This document shows, piece by piece, positions 3,267 to 28,139 of a DNA stretch of 30,161 nt (the stretch's first letter is position 1; the number at the start of each line of letters is the position of its first letter). Below the pieces are notes generated by a model. That model was not told the origin of the DNA and made no database searches. It worked only from the letters and a program-made list of their open reading frames with translations. The translations under genes and the position numbers were made by a program. This stretch comes from a bacterium (GTDB taxonomy: Bacteria > Patescibacteriota > Minisyncoccia > Phycocordibacterales > UBA1550). The DNA lies in assembly GCA_021812665.1 (NCBI GenBank), contig JAKAMX010000001.1:1-30161 (forward strand), read 5' to 3'.

Positions 3267-3445
3267 GGGTGCCTACTGGGAATTATCACGAGTTGCTAAG
3301 TCTGCTTGCGTGAGTACACACTGCGCGGACTAAGTACTCGCGATCCCGACTCGGCGACCGTGCGGGTGCCCGCCTCCGTCTTTCAAATCCCGATAGCCGC
3401 TCCAAAAACTAAAGAGACCGGACAACTTGTCCGGTCTCTTGTTTT
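3267..3445 (-). repeat. tRNA-3'-end-derived structured element, His-type copy 1
   Basis: 3267-3348 is 79/82 identical to 7379-7460; begins with a degenerate tRNA-His T-stem/acceptor copy; ends in the 14-bp hairpin at 3412-3440. Confidence 0.85.
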
Positions 3446-3447
3446 GG

Positions 3448-3510
3448 GCTGCCGTAGTAGAGGAAGTACAAAAGATTTTTGTGTCCCCGATTGTATTACT
3501 TTGTATTTAA
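3448..3510 (+). other. Orphan recombinase C-terminal tail / att half-site 1 (AAVVEEVQKIFVSPIVLLCI*)
   Basis: Follows the degenerate core GGGCTGC; peptide similar to the tails at 7579 and 10876; no start codon. Confidence 0.6.
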
Positions 3511-3575
3511 TTTGTAATGTGCCTGGGTACTTGTTGCGCCTGCCGTCTTGTTCCTCTCCTAAAGCTGCAATTAGC

Positions 3576-5609
3576 TTAGTATGCGTTGAGTACTGCTCGT
3601 GTCCCTGGTCCAACATAACCAACAGCCGAAATACCATGCGCTTTCTGAAGAGCGGCAACACCCGCAGCGGTAAGTGGTCCGAAGTTTCCGCTGGTTGGAC
3701 CATTGTAATACCCAAGCTCAGTTAGTCTTTTTTGTAACTCAACAACCTCGTTCCCTGTCATACCCTGCTGAAGGAATAACGTGAATTGATATTTTGAAGT
3801 CGAAGCGGGAGACGTAGTAACGACCGCTCCTGACGAACAAGGAAGTCCTGTTGTAGAACTGTACCCATAGCTCGATGAGCACCCAGAAGGAAGTGTGCCG
3901 CTCGTCGTGCTTGGGATGGTTGTTGTAGTTGTGCTACCGACCGTCACCGGAAGTGCCCCGCAGTCATTCAATGAATCACACACAACAACGATGGCGTGCC
4001 CATTACCAATTCCAGACAATGAAAGCACACTTCCATTTATAGTCGCCTGCACAATATTTGAGTTAGTGTTATACGCAACAGTATAGTTGCTGTTTGATCC
4101 ACCAGAAACAGAAACACTAGTGCTTTGTCCGAGACTCAGTACTGGCCCTGTTGAATTAAAGCTCAAGAACGAAGTTGCTGTTGATGCGTTTGTTGTCGTG
4201 GGGGTTGTTTGCGTCCCGGTGACATGGAGTGATAATGACGCACACCCAGTGTTGGTTGAAGAGCAAACAGTGATTTGCGCTGAGCCAATATTCGCGCCGG
4301 TTACATAGAGCGCACCTCCACTGATCCCCGCCTGGAAAACATCGTTTGATGGAGTGATGAGGATATACGGTGTCGTGCCACCAGTGATAGCAACACTTGA
4401 TGTTTGTCCGATTCCTACTGTTAAATTATTTTGAGCAAGATACACCTGGCTCGTACTCGAGGTATTATTTACTGTTACTTTTAAACTATTACAGTTACCT
4501 GATGTAACACAAACATTGATCGTTACTGTTCCGCTTGCTGCACCCAAGAGTGTCAGAGTGCTGCCCGAAATATTCGCCTGAACAATACTTGGGTTTGTGT
4601 TCGAAGCAATATAATAGGTTGCTGCACTACTGCCAGATATTGATACGGTCATCGTTTGCCCAACAGTTAGCACCGGTGCTGTTTGGCTGAACGAGATGCT
4701 ACCCGAACTTGTGCCACCGAGAGTAACTGTGACAACGCCACACGAACTAACGTTTGTTGAACACACCGTGATCGAGTATGTTCCGCTCGTGTTACTGCTA
4801 CCACCCAAGGTAAGAATACTTCCACTGATGCTGGTGGTCACATTGCCAGAACTTGAATTACCTGAAACCATATATGACCCCGTACCGCCAGAAATAGTTA
4901 TCGCAGTACTCTGTCCGTAAGAAAGAGAAACATTACTTTGACTAAATGTCAGCGTCTGTGTTCCCCCACCCTGAACCGTCACGTTTAATGTTGGACAGTT
5001 TGTCGTATTTCCTACCGAGCAAACAGTGACAGTTGTCGAACCACTTGCGAGCCCCAAAACAGTAATTTGATTTCCATTAACCGCAGCAGATGCAATCGCA
5101 GCATTTGAGTTGTTCAAAATATACAGAGCATTTTGTGTGTTGTTGGTTGCAGTCACTGTGTTCGTCTGACCAACAGAAAGCACCAACGCAGTCTGGTTTA
5201 GCGTAACTGAATTCACTGTTGTAGTAGTCACCGTAGGCCATAAGACCGTTGATGAGATCAAGCCATTGATACCACCTACCGAGACGTATGCTGGATTGCC
5301 TGTCGTGAGCCCAAACGAAGAACTACTAAATGTGTTTGAGAAATATCCGGACGAATTGGTTGTACCGATAGCCTTGATCTGCAAAACAGAATTTGTTGGT
5401 GTGTAATAAAGAATAACGCTCGAGTTCGGATCGGCGTTCACCGCAATCTGAACATTGTCACTACTTCCCGTAGCAGTAAGATTCAACGTTGGCGTTACTG
5501 AAGCAAGCGCCGTTGCCGAGAAAGTAACAAAGGAAACGACTGATAATAAAAATAGCAGAATTTGTTTTTTCGGTTTCATATAATATAAAATAGCACAATT
5601 AAAGAACAA
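3576..5609 (-). CDS. Secreted Ser/Thr-rich surface protein with five Ig-like repeats and a C-terminal peptidoglycan-binding domain (start probably ATG at 5579)
   Basis: Signal peptide MKPKKQILLFLL...ALA; five ~80-aa repeats 'L..GQ......' each ending in a C-x4-7-C pair; 'GCSSSYGYSSTTGLPC'; PG_binding_1-like 'LQQGMTGNEVVELQKRL...G.FGPLT..GV..LQ..HGI..VGYVGP.T'. Confidence 0.85.
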   Translation of the reverse strand: MFFNCAILYYMKPKKQILLFLLSVVSFVTFSATALASVTPTLNLTATGSSDNVQIAVNADPNSSVILYYTPTNSVLQIKAIGTTNSSGYFSNTFSSSSFGLTTGNPAYVSVGGINGLISSTVLWPTVTTTTVNSVTLNQTALVLSVGQTNTVTATNNTQNALYILNNSNAAIASAAVNGNQITVLGLASGSTTVTVCSVGNTTNCPTLNVTVQGGGTQTLTFSQSNVSLSYGQSTAITISGGTGSYMVSGNSSSGNVTTSISGSILTLGGSSNTSGTYSITVCSTNVSSCGVVTVTLGGTSSGSISFSQTAPVLTVGQTMTVSISGSSAATYYIASNTNPSIVQANISGSTLTLLGAASGTVTINVCVTSGNCNSLKVTVNNTSSTSQVYLAQNNLTVGIGQTSSVAITGGTTPYILITPSNDVFQAGISGGALYVTGANIGSAQITVCSSTNTGCASLSLHVTGTQTTPTTTNASTATSFLSFNSTGPVLSLGQSTSVSVSGGSNSNYTVAYNTNSNIVQATINGSVLSLSGIGNGHAIVVVCDSLNDCGALPVTVGSTTTTTIPSTTSGTLPSGCSSSYGYSSTTGLPCSSGAVVTTSPASTSKYQFTLFLQQGMTGNEVVELQKRLTELGYYNGPTSGNFGPLTAAGVAALQKAHGISAVGYVGPGTRAVLNAY

Positions 5610-5705
5610 TATTGCGTATATACCGTATACGAGAAGAAATCAGAACTTGATGCGAGACGAGTAAATTATAATACTTGAAACGCTAGATTTCGAGGCTTGA
5701 AAACA

Positions 5706-5733
5706 GGCCAGCCGGACGATTGTCCGGCTGGCC
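5706..5733. terminator. Terminator hairpin for 5740-6258
   Basis: GGCCAGCCGGAC-GATT-GTCCGGCTGGCC with A- and T-rich flanks. Confidence 0.8.
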
Positions 5734-5739
5734 TTGTTT

Positions 5740-6258
5740 TCAGATCTTTCTACTATCGTACGCCCAGTGCAACAATGCCTGTCTTTGTCTCGGTCTACAG
5801 TGCGCATCACCCGCCCTGCAATGTGCCCTGATCTGAGCGATATGCCTCGTCATCATACGCCATCGCTTGATCTGTCGAATATCCTCTGCCGGAATTCGTC
5901 GCCCCATATAATATCTGCAGTACCACTGGAACCATCCGCGCGGATCATCTTTGTAGATCCACCCCTTCTTTTGCCAGACTGAAAGTGGCTGGCTTGCATT
6001 GATTTTAAAGTAATTCAGCTCCGGATCATGTGTGTATATCCCCTTCTTCTGAAATTTTGCCTTTGTAAACCAGCTCTTTGGAAATTCTTTCGTGCAGTCT
6101 CTCATATAAACTCCGCCGAACACGCCAAGCGCGAGCATTTCTTTCGGAGAGAGATCTGGTTTGAATTTCGGATCAAAGTTCTTGCCTACCGGCTCGGTAA
6201 GCTGGTATGTATATCTCTTTTGCGTGCGGTCGTTGACCGTCACCAACTTCTTCTTCAT
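5740..6258 (-). CDS. Conserved hypothetical protein (DPRGWFQWYCRY motif)
   Basis: 172-aa ORF overlapping the TspO stop by 4 nt; Trp/Arg/Cys-rich, conserved-looking motifs; no function assignable. Confidence 0.8.
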   Translation of the reverse strand: MKKKLVTVNDRTQKRYTYQLTEPVGKNFDPKFKPDLSPKEMLALGVFGGVYMRDCTKEFPKSWFTKAKFQKKGIYTHDPELNYFKINASQPLSVWQKKGWIYKDDPRGWFQWYCRYYMGRRIPAEDIRQIKRWRMMTRHIAQIRAHCRAGDAHCRPRQRQALLHWAYDSRKI

Positions 6259-6758
6259 ATATTGAGCGCGACAATAGAGTAGTTAAGATAAACAGCAAAA
6301 CTGACCCAGAGGATATATGGGAGCAGCAAATACATCGCTGTGCGCGAGATTTTATAAAACGATACCATCGTAGCGAGTATCGCGATCCACAGCGCAACAA
6401 TGTCATAGAGCGCAAGCGTAGGATTATGCAATCCAAAAAAGAAAATGGACCAGAGCATGTTGAGCACCAGTTGAACAAAAAAGAGAATCAATCCCCTTTT
6501 TCGATCCATCGCAGTTATCTCTGATTTATTTTCCCAAACGAGAAACACCGAGATACCCATGAGCAAATACAAAAGTGTCCACACAGGACCAAACACCCAC
6601 GAAGGTGGGTTGAGCGCAGGCTTTAACAAAGTGACATACCACGAAGAAACTGACGAGACGGTGAAAACAGAACCAGCAATCCCCGCCAATTCACAAACAA
6701 CGATAGCAAAAACGACTTGAGAGACACGCTTGATAGTAAGGTTGTGCATTGCAGTCAT
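6255..6758 (-). CDS. tspO: TspO/MBR family tryptophan-rich sensory protein
   Basis: 'WY..L.KP.LNPPSWVFGPVWTLLY.LMG.S', 'LFFVQLVLN.LWS.FFF', 'LLLPY..WVSFA..LN'. Confidence 0.95.
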   Translation of the reverse strand: MTAMHNLTIKRVSQVVFAIVVCELAGIAGSVFTVSSVSSWYVTLLKPALNPPSWVFGPVWTLLYLLMGISVFLVWENKSEITAMDRKRGLILFFVQLVLNMLWSIFFFGLHNPTLALYDIVALWIAILATMVSFYKISRTAMYLLLPYILWVSFAVYLNYSIVALNI

Positions 6759-6842
6759 TGTATCATTTTGTTTTTGATAATTGATAGGCGCCGAAACATG
6801 CGCCCGAAGAGCGTCTTGCTGCTCTCCGCTTTTGCCGTATCA

Positions 6843-7289
6843 CTACTTAAAAAAACTAGCGCCAACCAAGACGACTCCTGCCCCAAGAAGACACCCCGAC
6901 ATTTTTCCAACAGCGGAGCCAAGAACAGTCCTTTTGTCGTCTACGGCCAACGCGGCCCAATATCCCTCAAAAATACCCGCGACCCCATCAGTGATCGCAT
7001 TGCCAACCACACCACCGATTATTGCTCCAACAACACCCGCTAGTTCTCCGCCGACTACAGCCATTACCGCGAGAATTCCATTATCGATAACACCGAAAAC
7101 AATGTCCGGCTTAACAGCTGAAATCTTTATATTAAATAGTTTCAATGAAGCAAGGCAAAGAAAAGCGAGGGCAACGAGGACGTACCCGATCAAATTCGCT
7201 TTATAGACGAAAAAAGTACTTACAAAAAAGATCACCGCACAGAGGACCAAAATATTTAATACTGAGGTTAAAAAACTTTTCTTTGTCAT
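6843..7289 (-). CDS. TMEM65/VIT-like membrane protein
   Basis: 'IVFGVIDNG...GN.ITDG.AG' resembles the TMEM65-type 'FG..DN...GN..SD..G' pattern; Gly-rich TM helices. Confidence 0.5.
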   Translation of the reverse strand: MTKKSFLTSVLNILVLCAVIFFVSTFFVYKANLIGYVLVALAFLCLASLKLFNIKISAVKPDIVFGVIDNGILAVMAVVGGELAGVVGAIIGGVVGNAITDGVAGIFEGYWAALAVDDKRTVLGSAVGKMSGCLLGAGVVLVGASFFK

Positions 7290-7378
7290 ATGAAGGATTA
7301 TAGCATCCAGTGCCTAACACTGTTAGGCACTCCCAGAAAGCCAAAGAGGTCGGGCAATTTGTCCGGCTACTTGTTTTT

Positions 7379-7577
7379 GGGTGCCTACTGGGAATTATCA
7401 CAAGTTGCTAAGTCTGCTCGTGTGAGTACACACTGCGCGGACTAAGTACTCGCGATCCCGCCTCGCCGTTGCTTCGCAACATGCTCCGGCTTTCAAATCC
7501 CAGCCGCAAGCAAAGCAGTTTGCTTGCTTAGGCACCCAAAATAAAAAAGCCCACCTCGTGTGGGGCTTTTTTATTTT
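7379..7577 (-). repeat. tRNA-3'-end-derived structured element, His-type copy 2
   Basis: Starts GGGTGCCTACTGGGA and contains the inverted TTCAAATCCC...TAGGCACCC; perfect 21-bp inverted repeat at 7532-7552/7563-7583. Confidence 0.85.
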
Positions 7578-7578
7578 G

Positions 7579-7674
7579 GGTGCAGTCGTAGAGGAAGTTC
7601 GAAAAGTTTTTGAAGATAAAAACAGCACGTCTATCTACATTCCCGCTTTCTCAACAAAAGAAGGCTCGGGCTAG
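7579..7674 (+). other. Orphan recombinase C-terminal tail / att half-site 2 (GAVVEEVRKVFEDKNSTSIYIPAFSTKEGSG*)
   Basis: Follows the GGGTGC core; GGT-GCA is in the same register as the integrase GGT-GCC at 27434. Confidence 0.7.
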
Positions 7675-8111
7675 TTCCACTTCCCTTTCAGCTTGAGATA
7701 TTTGATGGGAATAATGAGCAAAGAAACAATTACGAAAATTGCAGTAAACACTAGTGCAACCAGGCCAGGGGTTAAAATATTTGGTACTCCCCAACTTCCA
7801 TTACCTTCTGGAGTAATTGCGGTAAGGATGACAGTGAGTGGAATCCACCAATACGCAAACTTGAGCCAGGAGTAGAAAACTTCGTCACGGATTTTGTAGG
7901 TGATGAGAGAAATTAAGAGTATTGTAGCTCCCATATATAGGCCGAGAATAACAAACGGTTTTGAAATGTAAGCGGTGTCATAGCAGTATTTTGAACCCGC
8001 TGACCAAACTCCGATATTTCTGCAAAAACCAAATATTAATGGGTTACTAACGATATAAACTCCAATAAACACTATGAGCGAGGCCCAAAACACCGTTTTT
8101 TTAGATAGCAT
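7671..8111 (-). CDS. Hypothetical membrane protein (3-4 TM helices); possible immunity partner of the upstream lipase
   Basis: 146-aa hydrophobic ORF starting 7 nt after the lipase stop. Confidence 0.75.
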   Translation of the reverse strand: MLSKKTVFWASLIVFIGVYIVSNPLIFGFCRNIGVWSAGSKYCYDTAYISKPFVILGLYMGATILLISLITYKIRDEVFYSWLKFAYWWIPLTVILTAITPEGNGSWGVPNILTPGLVALVFTAIFVIVSLLIIPIKYLKLKGKWN

Positions 8112-8118
8112 AATTTTG

Positions 8119-10800
8119 TTAATAATCTAATATAATCTTTCCCTTGTTCGTAGTTGCTCTTAGAATAACAAGCCCTGGTAATGTTTTGGCGTCACCTGTT
8201 GTAGTATTTTGTATCTGTGTTGCATTCTTTTTTGCGTTGTAATGCGCCTGAATACTTTGTGTTCCGCTTGTTACCAATTCTTCAAGTTCTTTGAAGCTCC
8301 CTGTCTTATCAGTAGACCATTCATATTGTAATACAGTTTGAGATAATTCATTTGTGGATACACCATTGTAACTTAATCCCTGAATTTGAACATTGAGCTG
8401 GTGACCACTCTGGGTATTTTGAGAGTAGGTAATCTGCAGTGTGTTATTCCCTTGATCTGCAAGGAGCGAGGAGGTCGCGATAGTTGATATAGATGTTTGT
8501 GTATCGTCAATACCCTCAATCATGAGATTCATAGCGCTTGCGCTCAACGAGAGACGTGCCTCTGGTGGGGTGAGATCAGGAGTGACAATTTTCCCAAGCT
8601 CTGGCTTGATAGTGAAATCGGTACGACCATCACCATTGTAATCAACGAAAAGTGGCGAGGCGTTTTGGATCGTTCCATCAGTGAGGGCTATTGTCGCTTT
8701 AGTACTTGTCGAAGTAGGAACAGCTGCTATTGTGCTCGAGGCGATAATTGAATCGTTTCCATCTATCTCTTGCATGTCGAGCGTAAAGGAGCCAGATGCA
8801 TAGCCATCGAGATTTAGCGTTACTGGGGCGTGATTTGGAGTCGTTATTACTTGGACTTCGCCATATCGACGATAATCAGAACCAGGAATAGTTGAAGTTG
8901 CATAGTTTATAATGTTACCAGCACTGTCGATAGCGGATAGGTTGAGGGGCGAATGAAGAGTGAATCTAAGACGATTTGTTTTTACAGTCAATGGTTTTGT
9001 TGTTGTAATAAAATCTGGAAGAGTGCTTGTTGCACCAACAAGAATATCGTTGACTAAATTTCGTAGCTGTGGGACCTCGAAGATATCGGAATGTTTCCGA
9101 TCATACGGTAATAATTTTTGTGGAAAAGTATTGTTGTATTGATATAGATCAACCCAATATTTCGTCACTCCTGCTGCCGCAGGCGTCCATAATGCACTCG
9201 GTGAAACAACAGTACCATCGCCATCTACTACTTCATATGGTGTATATTTTATAGTAGGAATATCTACATAATTAGAGCACGTAGTCGATGGCGAAGATCC
9301 ATTCGCACAAACGCTATCCTCGCCCTGGTAATATTGAATCGTTGCAAGCGTATCCTCTCCCCACCCAGCAATTTCATACAAGGGCACGCCCTGCGGTGGC
9401 ACCCATGCGTCAAGCGTATTGTGGACTGCGTTTGCGTTGGAGAGCAGTCCCGCATTTCCTACAGCAGGATAATCCAAGTCGCTTGGCGACGAGGAAGCTA
9501 GACGCCAGGTATCTGTAATAAAGTTTGCAAGACGATCTGCAGAATGAATCTCGTTGCCATAGCGAGCACGAAAATCGGCAAGGATATCTGATTTATCAAA
9601 TGTCACAACAGGATTATCCACATACGTAAAATAGTTTGCTGAAGGAAGTAGGTTGTATGTGGCTGGTGTTGTGCTAGCAAAAGTGCGTGCTGTTTGTGGA
9701 TCTAGGGCGTAAGGCATTTGCGTTGTTGGCAAGCCTTGATCAAAGCCATGAAGAAGCGCGCCAGCCGCTTCAGGGGTACCGACCTCAGGAACTGCAACAA
9801 AGATTATTTTATCAATGAGTTTTGACGCTTCGCTCCCCAGCTTGTTGGTAAGTGCTTTCGCTACAAGTCCTCCGTTGGAATGAGCGACAATCGTTACCTT
9901 TCCTGTCTTTGATGAAGCCGCAAGGCGACGAAGATCTTGAATGATATACGGGGTGCTCGTTGCCCCCTGAACACCTCCATAATAAATACGATCATCTGAA
10001 AGCTGGTTTCCTGAATTCAGGATATCATCGAGTGATAATCGCCAATCGTACGGAGCTGTATCCCAGTCATTGATCGTTCCTGCGCTTTTGAGTCCATTCA
10101 TCTGGTTAATAAATGACTTATACACGTTACCTATTCCAGGCAGATATGCAGCATCAATCACTCCTTTGTCGTCACTGTTCGGATTGATATAGATATCATT
10201 CCGAATACTTTTACCTTGATCATTTAGATACAGATCGGGCGTACTATTACTAAAAAGACCAGGCTCCCAAAGTTTTTCTGTTCCACCATTGTAATCAGGA
10301 CGATAGAGTCGTGAGGCTTCAACACCTGGCAAGAAAAGAACGTTTGAGTAACAGTTCTCAGTACAGGCAGGAGACGAAGTAGCAATAGTGAGATCAGATA
10401 AAGTTGAGCTTGCGGTAACGTTATAAAGTAACCACGCATCGTGCCCATCATGGTCGCCCCAGTTGTAAGTGAGGAACGCAAAATTCCCAGGACCAAAGCT
10501 ATTTAGTGCTGGAGGTTGGGAATAGTAATCACCTGAACCCAAAAGAGCAGAACAAGAATAATTTATTCCTGAGACAAAAGAGGGATTTGTACAGATCCAC
10601 CAAAACCCAACAGGATGACTAAGGGGGTTATCTGCCAGCGTCGCTTGATAATGCGGATAAACATTCCCAACCGTGGGTATATTAAACGCTGCAGGATTAT
10701 TTATAAATGCAAAAGAAACTTGAGGAACTACTAAAAATAAACCAATTATTAGTAGTTGTTTACGGGCAAAGGCTTCGGTAATACGTCGCCAGAAAATCAT
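8119..10800 (-). CDS. Secreted alpha/beta hydrolase, LCAT/PGAP1-like lipase or acyltransferase (893 aa)
   Basis: Signal peptide; 'VLFLPGVEASRLY'; 'PYDWRLS'; nucleophile 'IVAHSNGGLV'; 'DGDGTV'; 'HSDI'; beta-rich C-terminal extension. Confidence 0.85.
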   Translation of the reverse strand: MIFWRRITEAFARKQLLIIGLFLVVPQVSFAFINNPAAFNIPTVGNVYPHYQATLADNPLSHPVGFWWICTNPSFVSGINYSCSALLGSGDYYSQPPALNSFGPGNFAFLTYNWGDHDGHDAWLLYNVTASSTLSDLTIATSSPACTENCYSNVLFLPGVEASRLYRPDYNGGTEKLWEPGLFSNSTPDLYLNDQGKSIRNDIYINPNSDDKGVIDAAYLPGIGNVYKSFINQMNGLKSAGTINDWDTAPYDWRLSLDDILNSGNQLSDDRIYYGGVQGATSTPYIIQDLRRLAASSKTGKVTIVAHSNGGLVAKALTNKLGSEASKLIDKIIFVAVPEVGTPEAAGALLHGFDQGLPTTQMPYALDPQTARTFASTTPATYNLLPSANYFTYVDNPVVTFDKSDILADFRARYGNEIHSADRLANFITDTWRLASSSPSDLDYPAVGNAGLLSNANAVHNTLDAWVPPQGVPLYEIAGWGEDTLATIQYYQGEDSVCANGSSPSTTCSNYVDIPTIKYTPYEVVDGDGTVVSPSALWTPAAAGVTKYWVDLYQYNNTFPQKLLPYDRKHSDIFEVPQLRNLVNDILVGATSTLPDFITTTKPLTVKTNRLRFTLHSPLNLSAIDSAGNIINYATSTIPGSDYRRYGEVQVITTPNHAPVTLNLDGYASGSFTLDMQEIDGNDSIIASSTIAAVPTSTSTKATIALTDGTIQNASPLFVDYNGDGRTDFTIKPELGKIVTPDLTPPEARLSLSASAMNLMIEGIDDTQTSISTIATSSLLADQGNNTLQITYSQNTQSGHQLNVQIQGLSYNGVSTNELSQTVLQYEWSTDKTGSFKELEELVTSGTQSIQAHYNAKKNATQIQNTTTGDAKTLPGLVILRATTNKGKIILDY

Positions 10801-10856
10801 ACAAACTAACCCTAGGAGAAAGGGGTGGCGATGTCAAGCTCAAGGCTGAAGCCTCA

Positions 10857-21072: not shown

Positions 21073-21097
21073 CTCGATTAATTTTAGATTACTAAAT

Positions 21098-22162: not shown

Positions 22163-22166
22163 ATTT

Positions 22167-22505
22167 TTATTTATGATAATCCTTAAAAATCTCTAAAATT
22201 AATATTGAGGTGATTGTCTTAAAATTATCGATTCGAAAATTTTGGTCTCCATCATGGTTGGGGCGGAAAATGACTCTATGCTTGCTGGTAACATCAACAG
22301 CAAAACATTTTTTATAGGAGCCCTGTAGAGGATGTGGGCGATAACTCCGAGGAACGTCTGCGAGGGCATCCGCGGCGCGGAGAACTTCAAAAGTTGCGAG
22401 AATATCATCAGCGAATTCTTGTCCATTTTTATTATATTTTTTGCGCAGAGCATCATGATTATTAACCAGAGCTTCATGCTTCTGGTTATCGAAATCTATT
22501 TTCAT
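22167..22505 (-). CDS. higB: HigB/RelE-like toxin
   Basis: 112 aa directly upstream of higA; 'RPHPLQG.YK..FAVDV..KHRVIF.P', 'I.ILEI..DYH'. Confidence 0.85.
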   Translation of the reverse strand: MKIDFDNQKHEALVNNHDALRKKYNKNGQEFADDILATFEVLRAADALADVPRSYRPHPLQGSYKKCFAVDVTSKHRVIFRPNHDGDQNFRIDNFKTITSILILEIFKDYHK

Positions 22506-22533
22506 GATAGCATAGCTGGCTATTGTAGGTCAA

Positions 22534-22564
22534 ATTATTATTTACCATATTGGTAAATAATAAT
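22534..22564. promoter_or_regulatory. Perfect 14-bp inverted repeat; probable HigA operator
   Basis: ATTATTATTTACCA-TAT-TGGTAAATAATAAT, 29 nt upstream of the higB ATG. Confidence 0.6.
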
Positions 22565-22607
22565 ATACCACCCAATAAAAGCAGCTGCAAGCAAAACAAT
22601 ATACCCA

Positions 22608-23663
22608 TTATTCGGCAACCACTTGTGCCGGCGCAATAATCCTCTCGATTGTCGCTTTCCACTTAGCCTGGCTCGGTGCTTTTACGCGGAGGTAGTCAAA
22701 GTGATTAGGTAGCACAATGTTCCCACCAAGAAGCGTCTCTCCTGATTCTTGGGTATTACCAGAGGCAGTATTGAATCCAATGATATATGGAGTTCCTACG
22801 ATTGTTGCGTTCTCGTCATAGTCAACAACGCCATATTCCCAGCTTGCCATGCGAAGCTGAATCTGTTCTCCATCAAGACCTGTTCCCTTCCCAAAATTTT
22901 CATTAAGAGGGCTGTTTGACCACTCAAGGCGAAAGAACCACTCAGCCTTAGGAATTGAATTATCAAATGTTACAGCACCGAGAGATTGAGACCCTGCCCC
23001 GTTCCACGACTTAATAATTTCTGTCTGCGCAGGGATTGTCCTAAAAGTTGGCTGTGGGCAACCAAGTTTTTGAGCGATCGATGCAATAATCGTCTGCTGA
23101 CTTGAGCGGGGGCTCAAACCTTGTGTCCAATCATAAAAAGCGAGGAGATGGACATTATCCAAATTGTTTATTTTCCCAGAAACACAAGTTTTCCAATTAC
23201 TAGATCTTGAATAGGAAGGGACCAGTGCGGTAAACCTTGCATCAGTTTTTGAAAGAAGGGGCGCATTACTAGTGACAACTTGTGTGTCCTTTACACTCAA
23301 AACACTCCCACTACTTTTTACATTTGATTCTGGGGTCTCTTTTTGTAATGAAACGGTGGATGGTCCGGGAAGTTGTTCTTTTGCAAAATTCTCAACTTGA
23401 GGAGGGTTCACAATAAAAGCTACAAGGGCCACAACGAACGATGCAAGAGTAACGACGCTTTGCATTTTCCAAACAGGAATCTGAGAATATTTCTCTCTTA
23501 AAAATTTTGCAAGTGGCGGAAAAAAGATAATCGCTACGGGGAAAAATAAAATCGATATTGCAGGCATTCCAAAGAACCCAACAGCGCCAAGTAACCCAGA
23601 GACGATAGATACACACCAGCTCGCGAACAACAACAAAGCACTCCCGATAGATTTTAGATTCAT
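22608..23663 (-). CDS. Hypothetical membrane-anchored protein
   Basis: Three N-terminal TM helices, Ser/Pro/Thr-rich linker, soluble C-terminal domain. Confidence 0.8.
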   Translation of the reverse strand: MNLKSIGSALLLFASWCVSIVSGLLGAVGFFGMPAISILFFPVAIIFFPPLAKFLREKYSQIPVWKMQSVVTLASFVVALVAFIVNPPQVENFAKEQLPGPSTVSLQKETPESNVKSSGSVLSVKDTQVVTSNAPLLSKTDARFTALVPSYSRSSNWKTCVSGKINNLDNVHLLAFYDWTQGLSPRSSQQTIIASIAQKLGCPQPTFRTIPAQTEIIKSWNGAGSQSLGAVTFDNSIPKAEWFFRLEWSNSPLNENFGKGTGLDGEQIQLRMASWEYGVVDYDENATIVGTPYIIGFNTASGNTQESGETLLGGNIVLPNHFDYLRVKAPSQAKWKATIERIIAPAQVVAE

Positions 23664-23697
23664 AAAATTACTTTGCTCCTACAAATTAAAAACCAGC

Positions 23698-23883
23698 TTG
23701 TAAAAACCTGGTGGGTAGGTACACAAAGCCCGCCACCAGGAGGCCTTGCGGCCATGCATGAGTTTCCCCATGCAACGTACAGCACGCCCTGAATGACGGG
23801 TTTTCTATGCTGTACGATTTGCAACCATACCTTAAGCATTTGAACTCCTAAGGGTTAGGTCGACTTCCTATTCAGTTGTAACC
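23698..23883 (-). ncRNA. Candidate structured 5' leader RNA (multi-stem, two GNRA tetraloops)
   Basis: Minus strand stems: CGTACAGCA/TGCTGTACG; TGCATGGG-GAAA-CTCATGCA; GGCC-GCAA-GGCC; CCTGGTGG/CCACCAGG; -10-like TATCAT just upstream. Confidence 0.5.
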
Positions 23884-23936
23884 TAATGATAGCTCAAAAT
23901 AGCTTAAAAACCAATATTTTGTTAACATTTTAACAA

Positions 23937-24584
23937 ATGACACGAGTAGAAAAGATGTATCAAGATATTGCCTGGGTTCTCACAGAGATCAGGCGCCAGA
24001 ATTCAACTGACGGAAAACTAAACGAGGTTGGTTATTTTGAATTTGAGGAAGGTCCAAATATTCCCCCTATAACACAACAAGAAGCTATCGCAAAATGGTC
24101 CTTGCAAGAAAAAGGAGTACTTAAGGTTATCAAGAAGATCACGAAGCAAGCTTTTGTTAAGCACGAATACGGCAGTGGTTTAATGACGGTTGATGATGGA
24201 TTAGAAATTAAGATCAACGTTGCAAAATTTGAGGAGCTAGAAAACTCAATAAACCAAAAGATTCCTGCACTCAAAAATGCAAAAAGAATACCAATCACAC
24301 TAAGCGACAAAGATGGAATATACAGGAACGATGGAAAAGGTAAACAATATGGGATCAGCAAAAAACGCAAAGCGCTTCTTTTCTTAATAGCAAAAAAGGG
24401 TCGCGTGAGTTTGCCAGAACTCCAAAAAGAAACTGGGCGTAGCGAATCGAGAATTTCTAGCGAAATAACTGAAATAAATAAAGTTTTCCGGGATAGCTTA
24501 ATGCTAGCAGACAATATTATTATTCATAACAACACAGGCGGATATTCAATAAACAATACTGTGTTTGAGATTAACCTCGAGTAA
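23937..24584 (+). CDS. Hypothetical protein with C-terminal winged-helix DNA-binding domain
   Basis: 'LL.LIAKKGRVSLPELQKETGRSESRISSEITEINK...IIIHN..GGYSIN'. Confidence 0.7.
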   Translation: MTRVEKMYQDIAWVLTEIRRQNSTDGKLNEVGYFEFEEGPNIPPITQQEAIAKWSLQEKGVLKVIKKITKQAFVKHEYGSGLMTVDDGLEIKINVAKFEELENSINQKIPALKNAKRIPITLSDKDGIYRNDGKGKQYGISKKRKALLFLIAKKGRVSLPELQKETGRSESRISSEITEINKVFRDSLMLADNIIIHNNTGGYSINNTVFEINLE

Positions 24585-24614
24585 CCGCTTTACCCCCTGT
24601 TAATAACTTTTTTG

Positions 24615-24640
24615 AAAACCCCTTAAACAAAGGGGTTTTT
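24615..24640 (+). terminator. Intrinsic terminator
   Basis: AAAACCCCTT-AAACA-AAGGGGTTTT followed by TGCTTTTT. Confidence 0.7.
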
Positions 24641-24702
24641 GCTTTTTATTTTCCTTAAAAGCGTAACTGACGCGCAGCCATGCTTTTTAATACAGTGTGC
24701 AT

Positions 24703-24825
24703 ATGAGGAAGAAGAACGCACAAAAAACAACAGAGAACAACCCGACAGAGAAAGAGGTTGATCTTTTTATTGAGCGCCTCTTGGATATCCTCATTACACA
24801 AGCAGAACTTTCTGCAGAAAAGTAA
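24703..24825 (+). CDS. Small 40-aa protein (not in the ORF track)
   Basis: MRKKNAQKTTENNPTEKEVDLFIERLLDILITQAELSAEK*; amphipathic C-terminal helix. Confidence 0.55.
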   Translation: MRKKNAQKTTENNPTEKEVDLFIERLLDILITQAELSAEK

Positions 24826-25094
24826 TTTGTATCTCTGAGGGTTACTAATCTTATTGGTATTCCTCAGAGCTGCAAAAGCTCAGTCGTACGGGGTGTACCT
24901 GTAGCACTGAAAGACGACTATAAATAAAACTTTCGAGATTATGGGCGACCGACTGAAGGTGACCGATATACGCATGATGTACCACCCGGGGAGTAAGGGG
25001 AACAAGAGTAAGTGGTAATGCGGTTGAGGGAGCAGGAAGGAGGGAGGTGTGGGGCAGAGGAAAAGGTCCTATAGTCAATTAATTAACAAACAAC

Positions 25095-25454
25095 ATGAAC
25101 AACCAAACAAAACACGTGCGCGTATCAACAAAAACACATAAAAAGTTAAAGACAGAGGCTGCTTCAAACAACACCTCAATGACACTTCTTCTAGAAAAGA
25201 AACTATCTGAACAGGAACCAGAATATTTTGACGAATACACTGTAACCACAGATTCAACAGTTTTCAATCGTATAGCAATCGAACAGCTTGGAAGAAAACT
25301 CACGCGGGACGAGCTCTGTGATATTTTCGAATTCCTAGGGGGCGAAGTAGACGGTATTACAACCGAGCGTATCCTAGAGTTGCCGGGACCAAAGAAGAAA
25401 ACGAACTATGAAGTGCTACCAAAAGCAACAAATGATACAGTTGATGATTTTTAA
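25095..25454 (+). CDS. Hypothetical protein with N-terminal ribbon-helix-helix-like segment
   Basis: 'KHVRVSTKTHKKLKTEAASNNTSMTLLLEKKL' is CopG/Arc-like. Confidence 0.6.
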   Translation: MNNQTKHVRVSTKTHKKLKTEAASNNTSMTLLLEKKLSEQEPEYFDEYTVTTDSTVFNRIAIEQLGRKLTRDELCDIFEFLGGEVDGITTERILELPGPKKKTNYEVLPKATNDTVDDF

Positions 25455-25460
25455 AGGTAT

Positions 25461-25811
25461 ATGAAATACAACAAAGATATATCTCTTCTGCATCAAGAAA
25501 AAATAAAGGAAATTATTCTCGACGATTCCGGGGTAAGCTCGAGCTATATTTGCCGAGAGCTCACAAAGAGAGGCCTCAAACTTGGAAGAAATTATGTGAC
25601 CAAGCTCGTCAAACAGGCAGCGCAAGAAATTGCAGAAGAAAAGAGAAACCTACGCGACGCCAAAGAGAAGAATCTCCCCTCTCGCATCGAGCAATACAAC
25701 ACCCTCATCTCAGCTCACGACGGAATAGAAAAGCATCTCGAAGAACTAAAGCTTGTGATCAGGGAACTCTCGGAAGAGCTCCCGATTGAGCACAGAAAAA
25801 GTTTTTGGTAA
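25461..25811 (+). CDS. Hypothetical HTH / coiled-coil protein
   Basis: 'SSSYICRELTKRGLKLGRNYVTKLVKQ' is HTH-like; directly upstream of the recombinase. Confidence 0.6.
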   Translation: MKYNKDISLLHQEKIKEIILDDSGVSSSYICRELTKRGLKLGRNYVTKLVKQAAQEIAEEKRNLRDAKEKNLPSRIEQYNTLISAHDGIEKHLEELKLVIRELSEELPIEHRKSFW

Positions 25812-25864
25812 TCCTCCCCTTGCTATATTCGTGATTACGAGCATTCTATGTATTAAACAAAACC

Positions 25865-27463
25865 ATGAACAAAGCACTTATCTACTGCCGAGTATCCACC
25901 GAGGAACAAGCAACCTCAGACCGACATTCGCTTAAGACACAATTAAACCTCTGTGAAAAAGCCGTCGAGGATGGTGGTTTCAAGTTGGCCGAAAACGGAG
26001 TCTACCAAGACCCGGGACGAAGTGCTACAAACATGAACCGACCAGGACTGCAGGACATGATGGTCCGTGTTTCGGAGGATAAAGACATCACGGCTGTCTT
26101 CGTGCAGGATTCAGATCGACTAACGCGAAATGTAAGCGATCACCTAACCATCAAAGCGTTCTTGAAAAAGCATGGGGCACAACTTGTCTCGGTTTCTCAA
26201 TCGGGCATCGAGGACACCCCTGAAGGAAACTTCATGGACCTCATCATCGCCGGAGTCGGGCAATTTCAATCGCAAATCACGGGACGCAAAACGATCAAGA
26301 GTATGGAGCAAAAGTTCAAAGATGGTGGGTGGCCCACCCATGCCCCTATTGGCTACCTAAATGTTGGCGACAAAGAAAACAACGAAGAGAGAATCGTCGT
26401 CATTGATGAAACGCGAGCACCGCTCATCAAAGAAGCATTCAAAATGTATGCGACTGGAAACTATTCAATCATTGAGGTGCGTGATGCACTATATAGCAAA
26501 GGATTTACTGCGCGCGGAGGTAAACTATTACAGCACAGCAAAATGGTCGATATGCTAAAAAACCATTTTTACTATGGAGAAATGCGGTGGCGCAAAATGT
26601 CGAATACAGGCAAACACACACCGATCATCGACAAGGAAACTTTCGACAGGTGCCAACTAGTTATGGCAAATAATCAAGGCGGGCGATGTCGCAGAAGAAA
26701 GTTTAACTTCATTCTTCGTGGGTATGTATGGTGCGGGCGTTGTGGATACCGCTACACCGCCGAACACCACCCAAAGAAAAACAAGAGTTACTATCACTGC
26801 AACCACTACGGCAACAAGATTCCGAATAGCACCATCACCTGCGCCGATCGCTATGTGGAAGTTGATGACTTGGAGAAGCAAGTTCGAGACCACTTTGACG
26901 AGATCCAATTTTCAGAAGCATTCATAAAGAAAATCGAAGGTAGGCTTCGCTTTATATATGAATCAAAAAAGAATGCAGTTACTGGAACAAAGAGTCGCCT
27001 TGTTCAACAAAAGCTAACGCTCGAAAAGAAACTTGAGGCCGCAGAGGAAAAACTTATCGATGGTGTCCTCGATGACGATGGGTTCGACCGCGCAAAAAAG
27101 CGCTACCGAGAGCAGATCGAAAACCTTGAGGAACAGATCAACAAACTCGACCGAACGAAAAACATAAAAGTGGACGTCATCCAAAAAGTTCTTCTGATGG
27201 TTCGAGATATCGGGCAAGCATACGAAAAAGCAGACCCTGAACTCAAGCGCCTTTACCTTGGACTTTTCTGGGAAAGATTCGAAGCAGAAAACCGACAGAT
27301 TACTATAGCTACTAAATCCCCCATCATAACAGCGCTAGAGGCCGCAGGAAGCGTCTCGTATCAAGAATTGACCAATGTACCAAGCGCAGAAAATACCACT
27401 CTTGGAAATGAAGTTATATTAAACTCCTTTAGGGGTGCCTACAGGGATTCGAACCCTGGCTGA
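25865..27463 (+). CDS. Large serine recombinase (integrase)
   Basis: Catalytic 'YCRVSTEEQ', 'RPGL', 'DRLTR', 'P.GY', recombinase domain, Zn ribbon 'CGRCG...YYHC...C', coiled coil; last 10 codons antisense to tRNA-His. Confidence 0.95.
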   Translation: MNKALIYCRVSTEEQATSDRHSLKTQLNLCEKAVEDGGFKLAENGVYQDPGRSATNMNRPGLQDMMVRVSEDKDITAVFVQDSDRLTRNVSDHLTIKAFLKKHGAQLVSVSQSGIEDTPEGNFMDLIIAGVGQFQSQITGRKTIKSMEQKFKDGGWPTHAPIGYLNVGDKENNEERIVVIDETRAPLIKEAFKMYATGNYSIIEVRDALYSKGFTARGGKLLQHSKMVDMLKNHFYYGEMRWRKMSNTGKHTPIIDKETFDRCQLVMANNQGGRCRRRKFNFILRGYVWCGRCGYRYTAEHHPKKNKSYYHCNHYGNKIPNSTITCADRYVEVDDLEKQVRDHFDEIQFSEAFIKKIEGRLRFIYESKKNAVTGTKSRLVQQKLTLEKKLEAAEEKLIDGVLDDDGFDRAKKRYREQIENLEEQINKLDRTKNIKVDVIQKVLLMVRDIGQAYEKADPELKRLYLGLFWERFEAENRQITIATKSPIITALEAAGSVSYQELTNVPSAENTTLGNEVILNSFRGAYRDSNPG

Positions 27464-27506
27464 GAGTTCCACAAACTCTAGTGCTAACCATTACACTATA
27501 GGCACC
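27434..27506 (-). tRNA. tRNA-His(GUG) with encoded G-1; no encoded CCA
   Basis: Acceptor GTGCCTA/TAGGCAC plus G-1:C73, anticodon arm AGAGT-TTGTGGA-ACTCT, T-arm CAGGG-TTCGAAT-CCCTG; followed by CCT. Confidence 0.96.
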
Positions 27507-27524
27507 ATACTAGAATGCCCGCCC

Positions 27525-27553
27525 AATATAACAGAAAGAATGTTGATTGACAA
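27525..27553 (-). promoter_or_regulatory. Sigma70-type promoter of tRNA-His
   Basis: TTGTCA-17 nt-TATATT with an extended -10 TG. Confidence 0.65.
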
Positions 27554-27595
27554 TGGTTCCCTGCCTTGCTCTGGTGTGTCCCAAAATTCGTTTCG

Positions 27596-27623
27596 TTGAC
27601 AAAAAGGGGTCACACGGTACCAT
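27596..27623 (+). promoter_or_regulatory. Sigma70-type promoter of 27658-27882
   Basis: TTGACA-16 nt-TACCAT. Confidence 0.55.
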
Positions 27624-27657
27624 TAAGAAATCAGGTAAATAATTTATACATATCGCC

Positions 27658-27882
27658 ATGAACCCATTCGAAAAAATGACACCGCTGACAGAGGAACAAA
27701 AGCAGGCAATTCGTGAGAAATTAACAAAGGGTGCACCAAAGGTTGAGACAACAGAAGACAAAGCAAAACGAAGAGCAGAGTTTGCAGCAAAGATGGCTGG
27801 CAAAAGTCAGGAAGAAATGGGAAAAATTCTTGTCCAAGAGAAATACATCCCAGGTGGCAAGGAGGATGGTCAGGCAGCGTAG
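27658..27882 (+). CDS. Small charged hypothetical protein (74 aa)
   Basis: Has its own promoter and terminator; K/E-rich helical sequence. Confidence 0.7.
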   Translation: MNPFEKMTPLTEEQKQAIREKLTKGAPKVETTEDKAKRRAEFAAKMAGKSQEEMGKILVQEKYIPGGKEDGQAA

Positions 27883-27894
27883 GTAGCACCATAA

Positions 27895-27931
27895 CAAAAA
27901 GGACCAGAAGAAATTCTTCTGGTCCTTTTTG
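27895..27931. terminator. Bidirectional terminator
   Basis: CAAAAAGGACCAGAAGA-AAT-TCTTCTGGTCCTTTTTG, 17-bp stem. Confidence 0.88.
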
Positions 27932-28139
27932 TGTGGGAGAAGAATTATCACGAGTTACTAAGTCTCGGGTACGTTAATGACGAGCAAGCTCGCTAATTAT
28001 GTGGTCACAGATAATTCCTCGCCGTCGCTCGGAATTTCCGCGACCCCGGCTCGTGGTTTTGCAAGCTTGCAAAACATCACTGCGCCTCGCACATGTACGA
28101 AAAAATCTGGAGCAGTCCAGATTTTTATCGTCATGTGCG
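27932..28139 (-). repeat. tRNA-3'-end-derived structured element, Leu-type copy
   Basis: 27942-27965 is 23/24 identical to 3280-3303; CGCGACCCCGGCTCG (28039) is similar to CGCGATCCCG(A/C)CTCG (3339, 7451); flanked by degenerate tRNA-Leu 3' ends. Confidence 0.8.

What the first reader, a model, noticed from the sequence alone, without database searches (positions are those of the whole stretch)
3267..28139. Family of ~200-bp elements built from the 3' end of their host tRNA (His twice, Leu once)
Seen: three loci share GAATTATCAC(G/A)AGTT(G/A)CTAAGTCT (3280, 7392, 27942) and CGCGA(T/C)CCCGNCTCG (3339, 7451, 28039). On the tRNA strand the 24-mer is followed directly by a degenerate copy of the local tRNA T-stem/acceptor strand: CCCAGTAGGCACCC for His (tRNA: CCCTGTAGGCACCC) and CTTCTCCCACAC for Leu (tRNA: CTTCTCCTGCGCAC). 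In both cases the junction falls exactly at the T-loop/T-stem boundary, with GATAATT replacing TTC(G/A)AAT. The other end has an inverted tRNA-end copy and a long hairpin, and each element closes with a terminator. Inference: a non-autonomous MITE-like or minimal integrative element, or a structured RNA, that adapts its termini to different tRNAs; its tRNA-end copies may create secondary attB sites that seed island growth. I know of no named family for it.
Basis: partly seen in the sequence, partly recalled or inferred. Interest (0 to 1): 0.8.

Follow-up and report, generated by a model that had tools for sequence, protein, structure and literature searches.

The report
Tiny gene-tail-replacing insertion cassettes at tRNAs
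The three look-alike 200-bp stretches belong to a large, apparently undescribed family of gene-free insertion cassettes in Parcubacteria (candidate phyla radiation) that sit behind half of this genome's tRNA genes. Each carries a spare copy of the gene's tail, a short antisense match to the insertion point and a conserved folded core.

Summary
The 24-mer and 15-mer occur exactly where stated. They are two pieces of a covarying core of about 100 nt. That core has 29 copies in this 689-kb genome, and 26 of them lie just downstream of a tRNA or tmRNA gene on its strand, so 25 of 50 such genes are occupied. A covariance model finds the core in 125 of 151 sampled genomes of the same order.

Each unit reads, on the tRNA strand: gene tail, hairpin, inverted arm, core, displaced second tail.

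1. The two "His" copies are tRNA-His-cognate units. Two serine-recombinase islands later inserted between tRNA-His and its unit and stranded them.
2. A copy behind topA duplicates about 65 nt of coding sequence. Island-free and element-free relatives show that the distal copy is the native gene end, so the inserted DNA brings a replacement tail.
3. The inverted arm is complementary to the target across the insertion point.

Best reading: a miniature, non-autonomous, site-specific integrative cassette. Its folded sense strand may be the recombination substrate, as in integron attC and CTX phage, but that step is inferred. The recombinase is unknown and no RNA data exist.

I found no match in Rfam 15 or in the literature searched. 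This scan has noted the same family several times in other Patescibacteria genomes.

The parts
28135..28219 (-). tRNA-Leu(GAG), host gene of locus 3
   Evidence: ARAGORN and Rfam tRNA model.
28100..28126 (-). Hairpin H (terminator-like, followed by a T-run) between the tRNA-Leu end and the element arm
   Evidence: Read from the sequence. The equivalent hairpin is present in nearly all copies.
28085..28095 (-). Inverted arm CATGTGCGAGG, complementary to the tRNA-Leu 3' end and the start of its trailer (..TGCGCAC|ATG)
28003..28086 (-). Complete core of locus 3. It is the short-P4 subtype, ends in CTGTGACC and contains the 15-mer
   Evidence: Covariance model R1 hit 27984-28106, E=5e-12. Coordinates.
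27943..28002 (-). 3' fragment of a second, older core. It carries the 24-mer and ends in GTGATAATT
   Evidence: Alignment to other copies. It lacks the P2 half of the core.
27931..27942 (-). Displaced, decayed copy of the tRNA-Leu T-stem and acceptor 3' strand: CTTCTCCCACAC against CTTCTCCTGCGCAC in the gene
27896..27930 (.). Bidirectional terminator hairpin, shared with the convergent small ORF. Read as the original tRNA-Leu terminator
   Evidence: Read from the sequence. That it is the original terminator is inferred from the insertion model.
7578..7603 (-). Degenerate tRNA-His-end-like remnant at the distal end of island B (attachment-site scar of the serine-recombinase island)
   Evidence: Similarity to 27432-27457 and to 3446-3469. 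Interpretation inferred.
7538..7577 (-). Hairpin H of locus 2
7492..7537 (-). Inverted arm of locus 2: GGGTGCCTA (acceptor part), an inserted hairpin (7505-7528), then GCTGGGATTTGAA (T-stem and T-loop part)
   Evidence: Identical to the arm next to tRNA-His in L093.
7397..7490 (-). Core of locus 2 (helices P2, P3, P4). Contains the 15-mer and the 24-mer
   Evidence: R1 hit 7377-7510, E=3e-31. Alignment A2.
7379..7396 (-). Displaced tRNA-His tail copy AATTCCCAGTAGGCACCC
   Evidence: Matches the L093 tRNA-His allele.
7341..7378 (-). Imperfect hairpin that closes locus 2
   Evidence: Read from the sequence.
3446..3469 (-). Second degenerate tRNA-His-end-like remnant, at the distal end of the older island A
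   Evidence: Interpretation inferred.
3405..3445 (-). Hairpin H of locus 1
3382..3394 (-). Inverted arm of locus 1, T-arm part only (ATCGGGATTTGAA)
3285..3380 (-). Core of locus 1
   Evidence: R1 hit 3265-3400, E=9e-31.
3267..3284 (-). Displaced tRNA-His tail copy of locus 1
   Evidence: From here leftwards the sequence is identical to L093, where it follows tRNA-His directly.
3228..3256 (.). Terminator hairpin after locus 1. Read as the original tRNA-His terminator, shared with the hemerythrin gene
27432..27505 (-). Present tRNA-His(GTG) gene. It has no element directly behind it
25865..27463 (+). Large serine recombinase of island B. Its 3' end overlaps the tRNA-His 3' end. Context only, not part of the element family
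   Evidence: Pfam Resolvase, Recombinase and Zn_ribbon_recom.

Best explanation
The three loci are copies of a miniature (about 180-250 bp), gene-free, non-autonomous integrative cassette. It inserts site-specifically into the 3' part of tRNA and tmRNA genes, at the T-loop (GGTTC|GAAT..) or right after the ..GCAC end. It also inserts into at least one protein gene, topA, at GGCAC|AAAAAC.

The inserted DNA has four parts:
1. A replacement copy of the target's tail, from the junction to the gene end.
2. A hairpin that usually looks like a terminator.
3. A short arm complementary to the target across the junction.
4. A conserved core of about 100 nt that ends in GTGAC(C).

The native tail is pushed downstream of the core and decays there. 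New insertions enter at the live gene, which produces tandem arrays. In the window, two tRNA-His-cognate cassettes were later separated from tRNA-His by two successive islands that entered at the GCACCC end of that gene.

Inferred mechanism: the sense strand of the cassette folds into three arms. Helix P1 (arm paired with tail) stacks on helix P3 and imitates the duplex target site. A recombinase supplied in trans exchanges strands at C|RAA, as with integron attC sites or the CTX phage attP(+) hairpin. In this genome the candidates are one XerA/XerD-like tyrosine recombinase and one three-recombinase (trio) element.

Shown: the anatomy, the target association, the covariation, which strand folds better, and which copy is native. 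Inferred: single-stranded DNA as the substrate and the identity of the enzyme.
For: - Target association. 26 of 29 model hits in the genome lie within 300 nt downstream of a tRNA or tmRNA gene on the same strand (1% expected at random), and 25 of 50 such genes are occupied. In other genomes of the order 33 of 36 hits do the same. The core is found in 125 of 151 sampled genomes of the order.
- Folded core. 99% of cells pair, 13 of 17 pairs show changes on both sides, and 0 of 500 shuffles reach this. The sense strand folds better than the antisense in 54 of 55 copies with RNA parameters and 53 of 55 with DNA parameters.
- Arms track the host gene. The longest exact match is 6.8 and 8.1 nt for the cognate tRNA against 4.7 and 4.3 nt for non-cognate ones. 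Perfect 19-22-nt repeats that include CCA occur in several genomes.
- Site dynamics. The orthologous tRNA-Leu(GAG) site in 27 relatives is empty, filled with different core types, or holds tandem arrays.
- Which copy is native. The topA site is filled in 8 loci and empty in 6. Empty relatives (L108, L110) carry the distal version of the gene end and the same downstream gene as filled relatives (L099, L101). The proximal tail, hairpin, arm and core are therefore the insert. In this genome's own topA copy all 7 differences across 20 duplicated codons are synonymous.
- The arm is complementary to the target across the junction: TTC|GAATCC at tRNAs and CAC|AAAAAC at topA.
- The displaced 'His' units. 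L093 shows tRNA-His followed directly by the unit and by the same flank as window 3284 down to 1.
- No recurrent neighbouring protein.
- The permuted unit behind tRNA-Trp folds into three fully paired arms.
Against: - No excised circle and no clean empty-site read was seen. Public contigs break at the repeats, and the few joints that skip an element have short sides.
- No recombinase is linked to the elements, and none was tested.
- It is unexplained how the arms become matched to more than 20 different tRNAs. Entry into a new tRNA at the T-loop would at first make a hybrid gene.
- Identical 68-nt core segments at two different tRNAs could reflect gene conversion rather than movement.
- Strong conservation of the fold across a whole order, and occupancy of half of all tRNA genes in streamlined genomes, would also fit a useful RNA.
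- L093 shows a jump in identity, from 100% to about 80-87%, inside the element. Recombination or a chimeric assembly cannot be excluded there.
Confidence: 0.62

Rival explanations
1. The unit is mainly a functional structured RNA, read through from the tRNA or tmRNA gene. The arm pairs with the pre-tRNA 3' end or with the tail copy, and the RNA acts in 3' processing, termination control or as a tRNA-like decoy. DNA mobility would then be secondary, or the cassette would simply be the vehicle for an RNA gene.
For: - Strong covariation, and the sense strand folds better.
- The unit always has the orientation of the tRNA, and the core is conserved across 125 of 151 genomes of the order.
- Half of all tRNA genes are occupied.
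- In some copies the arm and tail form an acceptor/T-stem-like minihelix with CCA.
Against: - The unit lies behind a terminator-like hairpin with a T-run, and no promoter of its own was identified.
- The same orthologous tRNA is empty in many relatives.
- The minihelix is not general. In other classes, and at topA, the arm is only about 9-10 nt.
- A copy with the same anatomy sits behind a protein gene and duplicates its coding end.
- G-U intermediates are rare at the covarying pairs.
- No RNA run holds this organism, so there is no expression evidence either way.
Confidence: 0.22
2. The units are leftover attachment-site scars (attL/attR arms) of ordinary integrase-bearing islands or prophages that once sat at these tRNAs.
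For: - The direct repeats start in the T-loop, as at classical tRNA integration sites.
- In the window two units lie at island borders next to a serine recombinase.
Against: - 25 different tRNA and tmRNA genes carry a unit with no island, no integrase and no recurrent neighbouring gene.
- The core has a covarying structure kept across an order, which scars would not keep.
- The window islands entered at GCACCC, not at the T-loop junction that the units use.
Confidence: 0.08
3. The core is the scaffold of a guide RNA, with the arms as guides, for an RNA-guided transposon enzyme such as TnpB (omega RNA) or an IS110 recombinase (bridge RNA).
For: A conserved scaffold is flanked by target-matched variable segments, and one arm is antisense to the insertion point.
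Against: - No Y1 transposase, TnpB, IS110 transposase or reverse transcriptase was detected in this genome, which is 91% complete.
- No protein gene lies inside or regularly beside the units.
- IS605-type insertion makes no target duplication.
Confidence: 0.04

Closest known systems
Integrative islands and prophages that target tRNA and tmRNA gene 3' ends at the T-loop, and their integrase-less derivatives (cis-mobilizable elements, CIMEs). Recalled from established knowledge.
   Same: - Insertion into the 3' part of tRNA and tmRNA genes.
- A direct repeat that runs from the T-loop to the gene end.
- The inserted DNA restores the gene tail, and the native tail is displaced.
- Tandem accretion at the live gene.
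   Different: - About 200 bp in total, with no gene and no integrase.
- An inverted arm complementary to the insertion point.
- A covarying three-helix core shared by units at more than 20 different tRNAs in one genome.
- It also uses a protein-gene end (topA).
Integron attC sites and gene cassettes, and the CTX phage attP(+) hairpin. In both, a folded single strand forms the recombination site. Recalled from established knowledge.
   Same: - Short non-coding units whose structure is conserved and whose paired arms vary in sequence.
- One strand folds better than the other.
- The stem imitates a duplex site.
- Arrays form with the newest unit nearest the entry site.
- The enzyme acts in trans.
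   Different: - No RYYYAAC/GTTRRRY core sites, no attI and no platform integrase.
- The target is a tRNA T-loop, not attI or dif.
- The conserved part is a three-way junction, not a single bulged hairpin.
- Use of single-stranded DNA is not shown here.
[quoted passage not shown]
   Same: Small, non-coding, multi-copy, non-autonomous, and flanked by an inverted pair and a direct pair of repeats.
   Different: - The inverted repeats are copies of each target, not family-wide transposase sites.
- The direct repeat is 12 to about 70 nt and can differ between its two copies by substitutions typical of separate lineages.
- No parent insertion sequence is present.

Membership tests
tRNA/tmRNA-targeting integrative elements (T-loop class) | Sits in or at the 3' part of a tRNA or tmRNA gene, flanked by direct repeats that start in the T-loop and run to the gene end | tested here: met
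   26 of 29 own copies and 33 of 36 copies in other genomes lie behind tRNA or tmRNA genes. Repeats begin at C|GAAT of the T-loop.
tRNA/tmRNA-targeting integrative elements (T-loop class) | The inserted DNA supplies the new gene tail, and the native tail is the distal repeat | tested here: met
   Shown at the topA site by comparing filled with empty relatives (L099 against L108, L101 against L110). Inferred by analogy for tRNA sites, where distal copies are the decayed ones.
tRNA/tmRNA-targeting integrative elements (T-loop class) | The element encodes its own integrase next to the attachment site | tested here: not met
   The units are about 200 bp without an ORF, and no recurrent protein lies within 1.5 kb in 40 loci.
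tRNA/tmRNA-targeting integrative elements (T-loop class) | Excision to a circle, leaving a restored empty site | tested here: inconclusive
   Only assembled contigs were available. Joints that skip elements have sides of 27-32 nt.
Integron cassettes / attC | Conserved core sites R'' RYYYAAC and R' GTTRRRY at the ends of the hairpin | tested here: not met
   The junctions read GTGAC(C)|GAAT or |AAAAAC, and the arm ends in ..TTCGAA or ..GTTTTTGTG.
Integron cassettes / attC | Linked integron integrase with attI and a promoter platform | tested here: not met
   The genome holds one XerA/XerD-like recombinase and one three-recombinase element, neither next to an array. The integron-integrase models score far below their cut-offs.
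Integron cassettes / attC | Strand-specific folded structure with variable sequence, and arrays of units | tested here: met
   Covariation and strand asymmetry. Tandem arrays at L034, L035 and behind tmRNA on contig C53.
MITE | Family-wide terminal inverted repeats and a short target duplication of fixed length | tested here: not met
   The arms differ with each host tRNA. The repeats range from 12 to about 70 nt.
IS200/IS605 miniature derivatives or TnpB omega RNA; IS110 bridge RNA | A cognate Y1 transposase, TnpB or IS110 recombinase in the genome | tested here: not met
   PF01797, PF07282 and PF01548 give no match in this 91%-complete genome.
Any Rfam 15 family | Score at or above the family's gathering threshold | tested here: not met
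   Only tRNA and LOOT reach threshold in the window. Relaxed scans of loci 1 and 3 hit only terminator hairpins.

The most novel reading that the evidence does not exclude
These are a new class of single-strand-recombining mini-cassettes. A roughly 200-nt circle of the sense strand folds into a three-arm structure whose P1-P3 stack imitates the duplex T-loop region of a tRNA gene. A housekeeping Xer-type recombinase of Parcubacteria inserts it, together with a ready-made replacement gene tail. That would be an integron- or CTX-like mechanism aimed at almost every tRNA gene of a reduced genome.
Probability: 0.25. Interest if true: 0.9.

Novelty: new variant of a known kind. Interest (0 to 1): 0.78.

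Why it matters
If this reading is right, the smallest bacterial genomes known carry, behind about half of their tRNA genes, a self-contained insertion cassette. It has no gene of its own, repairs the gene it enters and is recognised through a folded core. That would be the smallest integrative element described.

It also gives a concrete substrate for finding the recombinase that acts on tRNA genes in candidate-phyla-radiation bacteria. It would explain a recurrent source of contig breaks and mis-annotated 'partial tRNAs' in these genomes.

The finding that the cassette carries tails with substitutions typical of another lineage offers a marker of DNA exchange between uncultured lineages.

If the element instead works as RNA, it is a very abundant uncatalogued RNA family tied to tRNA expression.

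Tried and rejected
- Rfam 15, at gathering thresholds and in relaxed mode: no family.
- Literature, four usable full-text searches and one paper read: nothing describes it.
- IMG/VR viral contigs, two motif scans. The first found nothing. The 14 hits of the second were chance, and none matched the model.
- Phage and plasmid collections: no match.
- RNA evidence: the metatranscriptomes of the same study hold none of the sequence, so expression could not be tested.
- Read laying. Only Logan contigs were available, and I laid them on contig C19 (five tRNAs with units) rather than on the window. The contigs break at the units, and the joints 4608->4781 and 4866->5132 skip whole units. Their sides are short, and the second does not have the predicted empty-site border. 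I treat both as inconclusive.
- tmRNA, retron, group II intron and T-box readings were considered from the anatomy and dropped. There is no reverse transcriptase, the unit is too small, and it is in the wrong position.
- A first statistic for arm-to-tRNA matching (split best matches) had too high a background. I replaced it with the longest exact match.
- The giant hairpin between the tRNA end and the arm looked like the key feature. It is absent at topA and in other classes, so I no longer treat it as essential.

Full report
**What is in the window**

The 24-mer is at 3280, 7392 and 27942, and the 15-mer at 3339, 7451 and 28039, with none expected in shuffles. The window has two tRNA genes, both on the minus strand: tRNA-His 27432-27505 and tRNA-Leu(GAG) 28135-28219. 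Rfam finds only these and a LOOT RNA. Relaxed Rfam scans of loci 1 and 3 hit only terminator hairpins.

Read on the tRNA strand, each locus has the same order of parts:
- a hairpin;
- a segment complementary to a tRNA 3' end;
- a conserved stretch that holds the 15-mer and then the 24-mer;
- a degenerate direct copy of the T-stem and acceptor 3' strand;
- a closing hairpin.

**The family is far larger than three copies**

A BLAST of the three loci against the whole genome (689 kb in 66 contigs) showed many more copies, all behind tRNA genes. I aligned 18 of them (A2).
- RNAalifold gave two helices with compensatory changes, and I built covariance model R1 from them.
- R1 finds 29 copies in this genome.
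- 26 of the 29 start within 300 nt downstream of a tRNA or tmRNA gene on the same strand, against 1% for random placement. That occupies 25 of 50 such genes, and two copies lie in tandem behind tmRNA.
- In a sample of the same order, 125 of 151 genomes have matches, roughly 960 in all and up to about 20 per genome.
- Of 36 hits in 29 of those genomes, 33 again lie behind tRNA or tmRNA genes.
- In a phylum-wide sample the model finds only 5 of 150 genomes. This core type is therefore essentially order-specific, although the few distant hits have the same architecture.

By its L19 protein the organism is a Parcubacteria/Paceibacteria bacterium, and the nearest named relatives are Candidatus Yonathbacteria.

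**The core is a real folded structure on the tRNA-sense strand**

- On 37 sequences from other genomes, 99% of cells pair, 13 of 17 pairs show changes on both sides, and no shuffle of 500 reaches this. Sliding the partner by one to three columns destroys the signal. That alignment was fitted to the model, so the count leans towards the structure. The independent MAFFT alignment shows the same swaps, for example GGC/GCC to GCC/GGC to GAC/GTC in P2 and UAC/GUA to CAC/GUG in P3.
- The sense strand folds more stably than its complement in 54 of 55 copies with RNA parameters and 53 of 55 with DNA parameters.
- The core is a three-way junction with three helices. P1 is the arm paired with the tail copy. 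P2 is a 3-bp stem, a GCA/GA internal loop and a variable hairpin. P3/P4 is a long helix with a conserved G-U pair, a bulged A, conserved U-U and C-A mismatches, and a second GCA/GA loop.
- Hairpin tips are often GAGC-GNA-GCGA.

**Arms follow the host gene**

- The inverted arm and the direct copy match the neighbouring tRNA better than other tRNAs. The longest exact match is 6.8 and 8.1 nt for the cognate tRNA against 4.7 and 4.3 nt for others, over 51 copies.
- Many copies have perfect 19-22-nt repeats that include CCA.
- The repeat begins at C|GAAT of the T-loop, and the core always ends in GTGAC(C).
- A second group has a short generic arm (..TGTG) and sits right after a tRNA that ends in ..GCAC|A. 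The complete core of locus 3 belongs to this group.

**The site is dynamic**

I compared the orthologous tRNA-Leu(GAG) behind rplS in 27 relatives of the genus. It carries one of the following:
- a plain terminator;
- a hairpin that includes a partial inverted copy but no core;
- this core type;
- other core types in the same architecture;
- tandem arrays, in which each displaced tail is followed by a new hairpin, arm and core.

Two different tRNA-Leu genes on contig C19 share an identical 68-nt P3-P4 segment but differ in P2 and in their arms. Copies are therefore mosaic.

**Why there are two 'His' copies**

I looked up the hemerythrin protein encoded at 2788-3201 in public assemblies. One contig (L093) has the following order: tRNA-Leu (with no unit behind it), a small ORF, tRNA-His, a hairpin, the arm, the core, GTGATAATT, CCCAGTAGGCACCC, and then exactly the terminator and flank of window 3284 down to 1.

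The tRNA-His in L093 has the T-arm CTGGG TTCAAAT CCCAG. That is what the arms of window loci 1 and 2 match. The present window gene instead has CAGGG TTCGAAT CCCTG.

Next to loci 1 and 2 lie degenerate tRNA-His-end-like remnants (3446-3469 and 7578-7603) that share GCACCC with the tRNA end. A large serine recombinase gene (25865-27463) runs into the tRNA-His 3' end.

The simplest history is this:
1. A unit inserted behind tRNA-His.
2. An island (now 3470-7340, without a recombinase) entered at GCACCC and displaced that unit.
3. A second, closely related unit inserted at the restored gene.
4. A second island (7604-27431) displaced it again.

There is a caveat. Across the element in L093, identity to the window drops from 100% to about 80-87%. 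L093 is therefore a recombinant, a different lineage that shares the left flank, or a chimeric assembly. The mismatch between the present tRNA-His T-arm and the displaced units is not explained by island insertion alone.

**The key comparison: a copy behind a protein gene**

One hit (contig C14:3473-3597) is not at a tRNA. It follows a topA-like gene and is flanked by two copies of the last 65 nt or so of the coding sequence. In 20 shared codons the two copies differ at 7 positions, all synonymous third-base changes. This says that both versions evolved as coding sequence in separate lineages.

Among the 14 genus loci fetched for inspection (the best topA matches in 28 of 29 genus genomes, including this genome's own C14 locus) the site is filled in 8 and empty in 6.
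- Empty relatives (L108, L110) carry the distal version of the gene end, with its lineage-specific C-terminus and the same downstream gene as the filled relatives L099 and L101.
- The proximal versions all end in HKLxK followed by a stop.
- So the insert is the proximal tail plus hairpin, arm and core, and the native tail is the distal one.

At topA the arm is only GTTTTTGTG, the complement of CAC|AAAAAC that spans the junction. At tRNAs the arm is the complement of TTC|GAATCC. The targets share the pattern GGYWC|RAA, which resembles the core end GTGAC(C)|.

In the distant genomes the arm is also only about 10 nt, while the repeat is perfect. The long hairpin between the tRNA end and the arm, which is striking in this genome, is therefore not essential. 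P1 next to the junction, together with the tail copy, is.

**Mechanism**

Shown:
- It is inserted DNA that restores the target.
- It has a strand-asymmetric covarying core.
- It has an arm antisense to the insertion point.
- It has no gene of its own and no recurrent neighbouring protein.

Inferred: when permuted to its presumed free form, the unit behind tRNA-Trp (192 nt) folds into three fully paired arms. The 3' strand runs without a break from P3 into P1, so the P3-P1 stack looks like a duplex site with an element-specific left half and a target-identical right half. This is the logic of integron attC sites and of the CTX phage attP(+) hairpin. In both, a folded single strand is recombined with a duplex site by a tyrosine recombinase acting in trans, and replication completes the insertion. 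I recall this from established knowledge and have not tested it here.

The recombinases found in the genome are:
- one XerA/XerD-like recombinase (C32; NF040815, 228 bits);
- a three-recombinase element on C48;
- the island's serine recombinase;
- a partial resolvase.

It has no detectable Y1 transposase, TnpB, IS110 transposase or reverse transcriptase.

**What remains open**

- I could not observe excision, circles or transcripts. The RNA runs of the source study do not hold the organism. Contigs laid on C19 break at the units, and their few skipping joints are unreliable.
- It is unclear how a unit acquires arms for a new tRNA.
- A functional RNA role, alone or as the cargo of the cassette, is not excluded.

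**Comparison with what is known**

- It works like tRNA-targeting integrative elements, but it fails their defining feature of an own integrase.
- It resembles attC cassettes in logic, but lacks their core sites and platform.
- It is not a MITE.
- Neither Rfam 15 nor four usable literature searches gave a described family.
- Nothing was found in viral contigs, phage records or plasmid records.
- Earlier notes of this scan describe the same kind of element in other Patescibacteria genomes and left 'cassette or RNA module' open.

Noticed in passing
window 23741-23861 (-): LOOT RNA (Rfam RF03000, 70.8 bits against a threshold of 46.4) lies inside island B, between divergent genes.
   Followed up: no
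window 25865-27463 (+) and 27432-27505 (-): The large serine recombinase ORF ends inside the tRNA-His gene. Related tRNA-His-end-like remnants lie at 7578-7603 and 3446-3469, which suggests two islands in tandem at the GCACCC end of tRNA-His.
   Followed up: partly
G000 contig C48:626-3497 (loci L112-L114): Three adjacent, overlapping tyrosine recombinase genes (337, 312 and 315 aa) are flanked by long inverted repeats rich in TTATGCCGAATGG. This looks like a recombinase-in-trio element.
   Followed up: partly
G000 contig C14:3473-3680 and loci L097-L104: The same element family sits behind the topA-like gene in 8 of the 14 genus loci inspected (best topA matches, own C14 locus included). The element-borne replacement C-terminus always ends in HKLxK, whereas native ends vary between lineages.
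   Followed up: yes
L093:1014-1101 against window 3259-3346: Identity between this public contig and the window jumps from about 80-87% to 100% within the element. This marks a recombination breakpoint or an assembly chimera at the repeat.
   Followed up: partly
G000 contigs C19 and C51; C3 and C6: The genome bin holds two diverged versions of the same tRNA loci (tRNA-Leu TAG/CAG and tRNA-Leu CAA), with different element variants and arrangements. It probably mixes two strains (contamination 2.6%).
   Followed up: no
L028, L034, L022, L035, L037 (tRNA-Leu(GAG) loci of genus relatives): At least two other core types (starting AAGGTTGAGTATG.. and AAAGCGAGCGCGGGG..) use the same architecture of arm, core and displaced tail at the same tRNA.
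   Followed up: no
hairpin tips across copies, for example window 7470-7480 and contig C3:2110-2125: The tip motif GAGC-GNA-GCGA recurs, including GCGAAGC. From memory, GCGAAGC is an unusually stable mini-hairpin as DNA, which hints weakly at a DNA fold.
   Followed up: no
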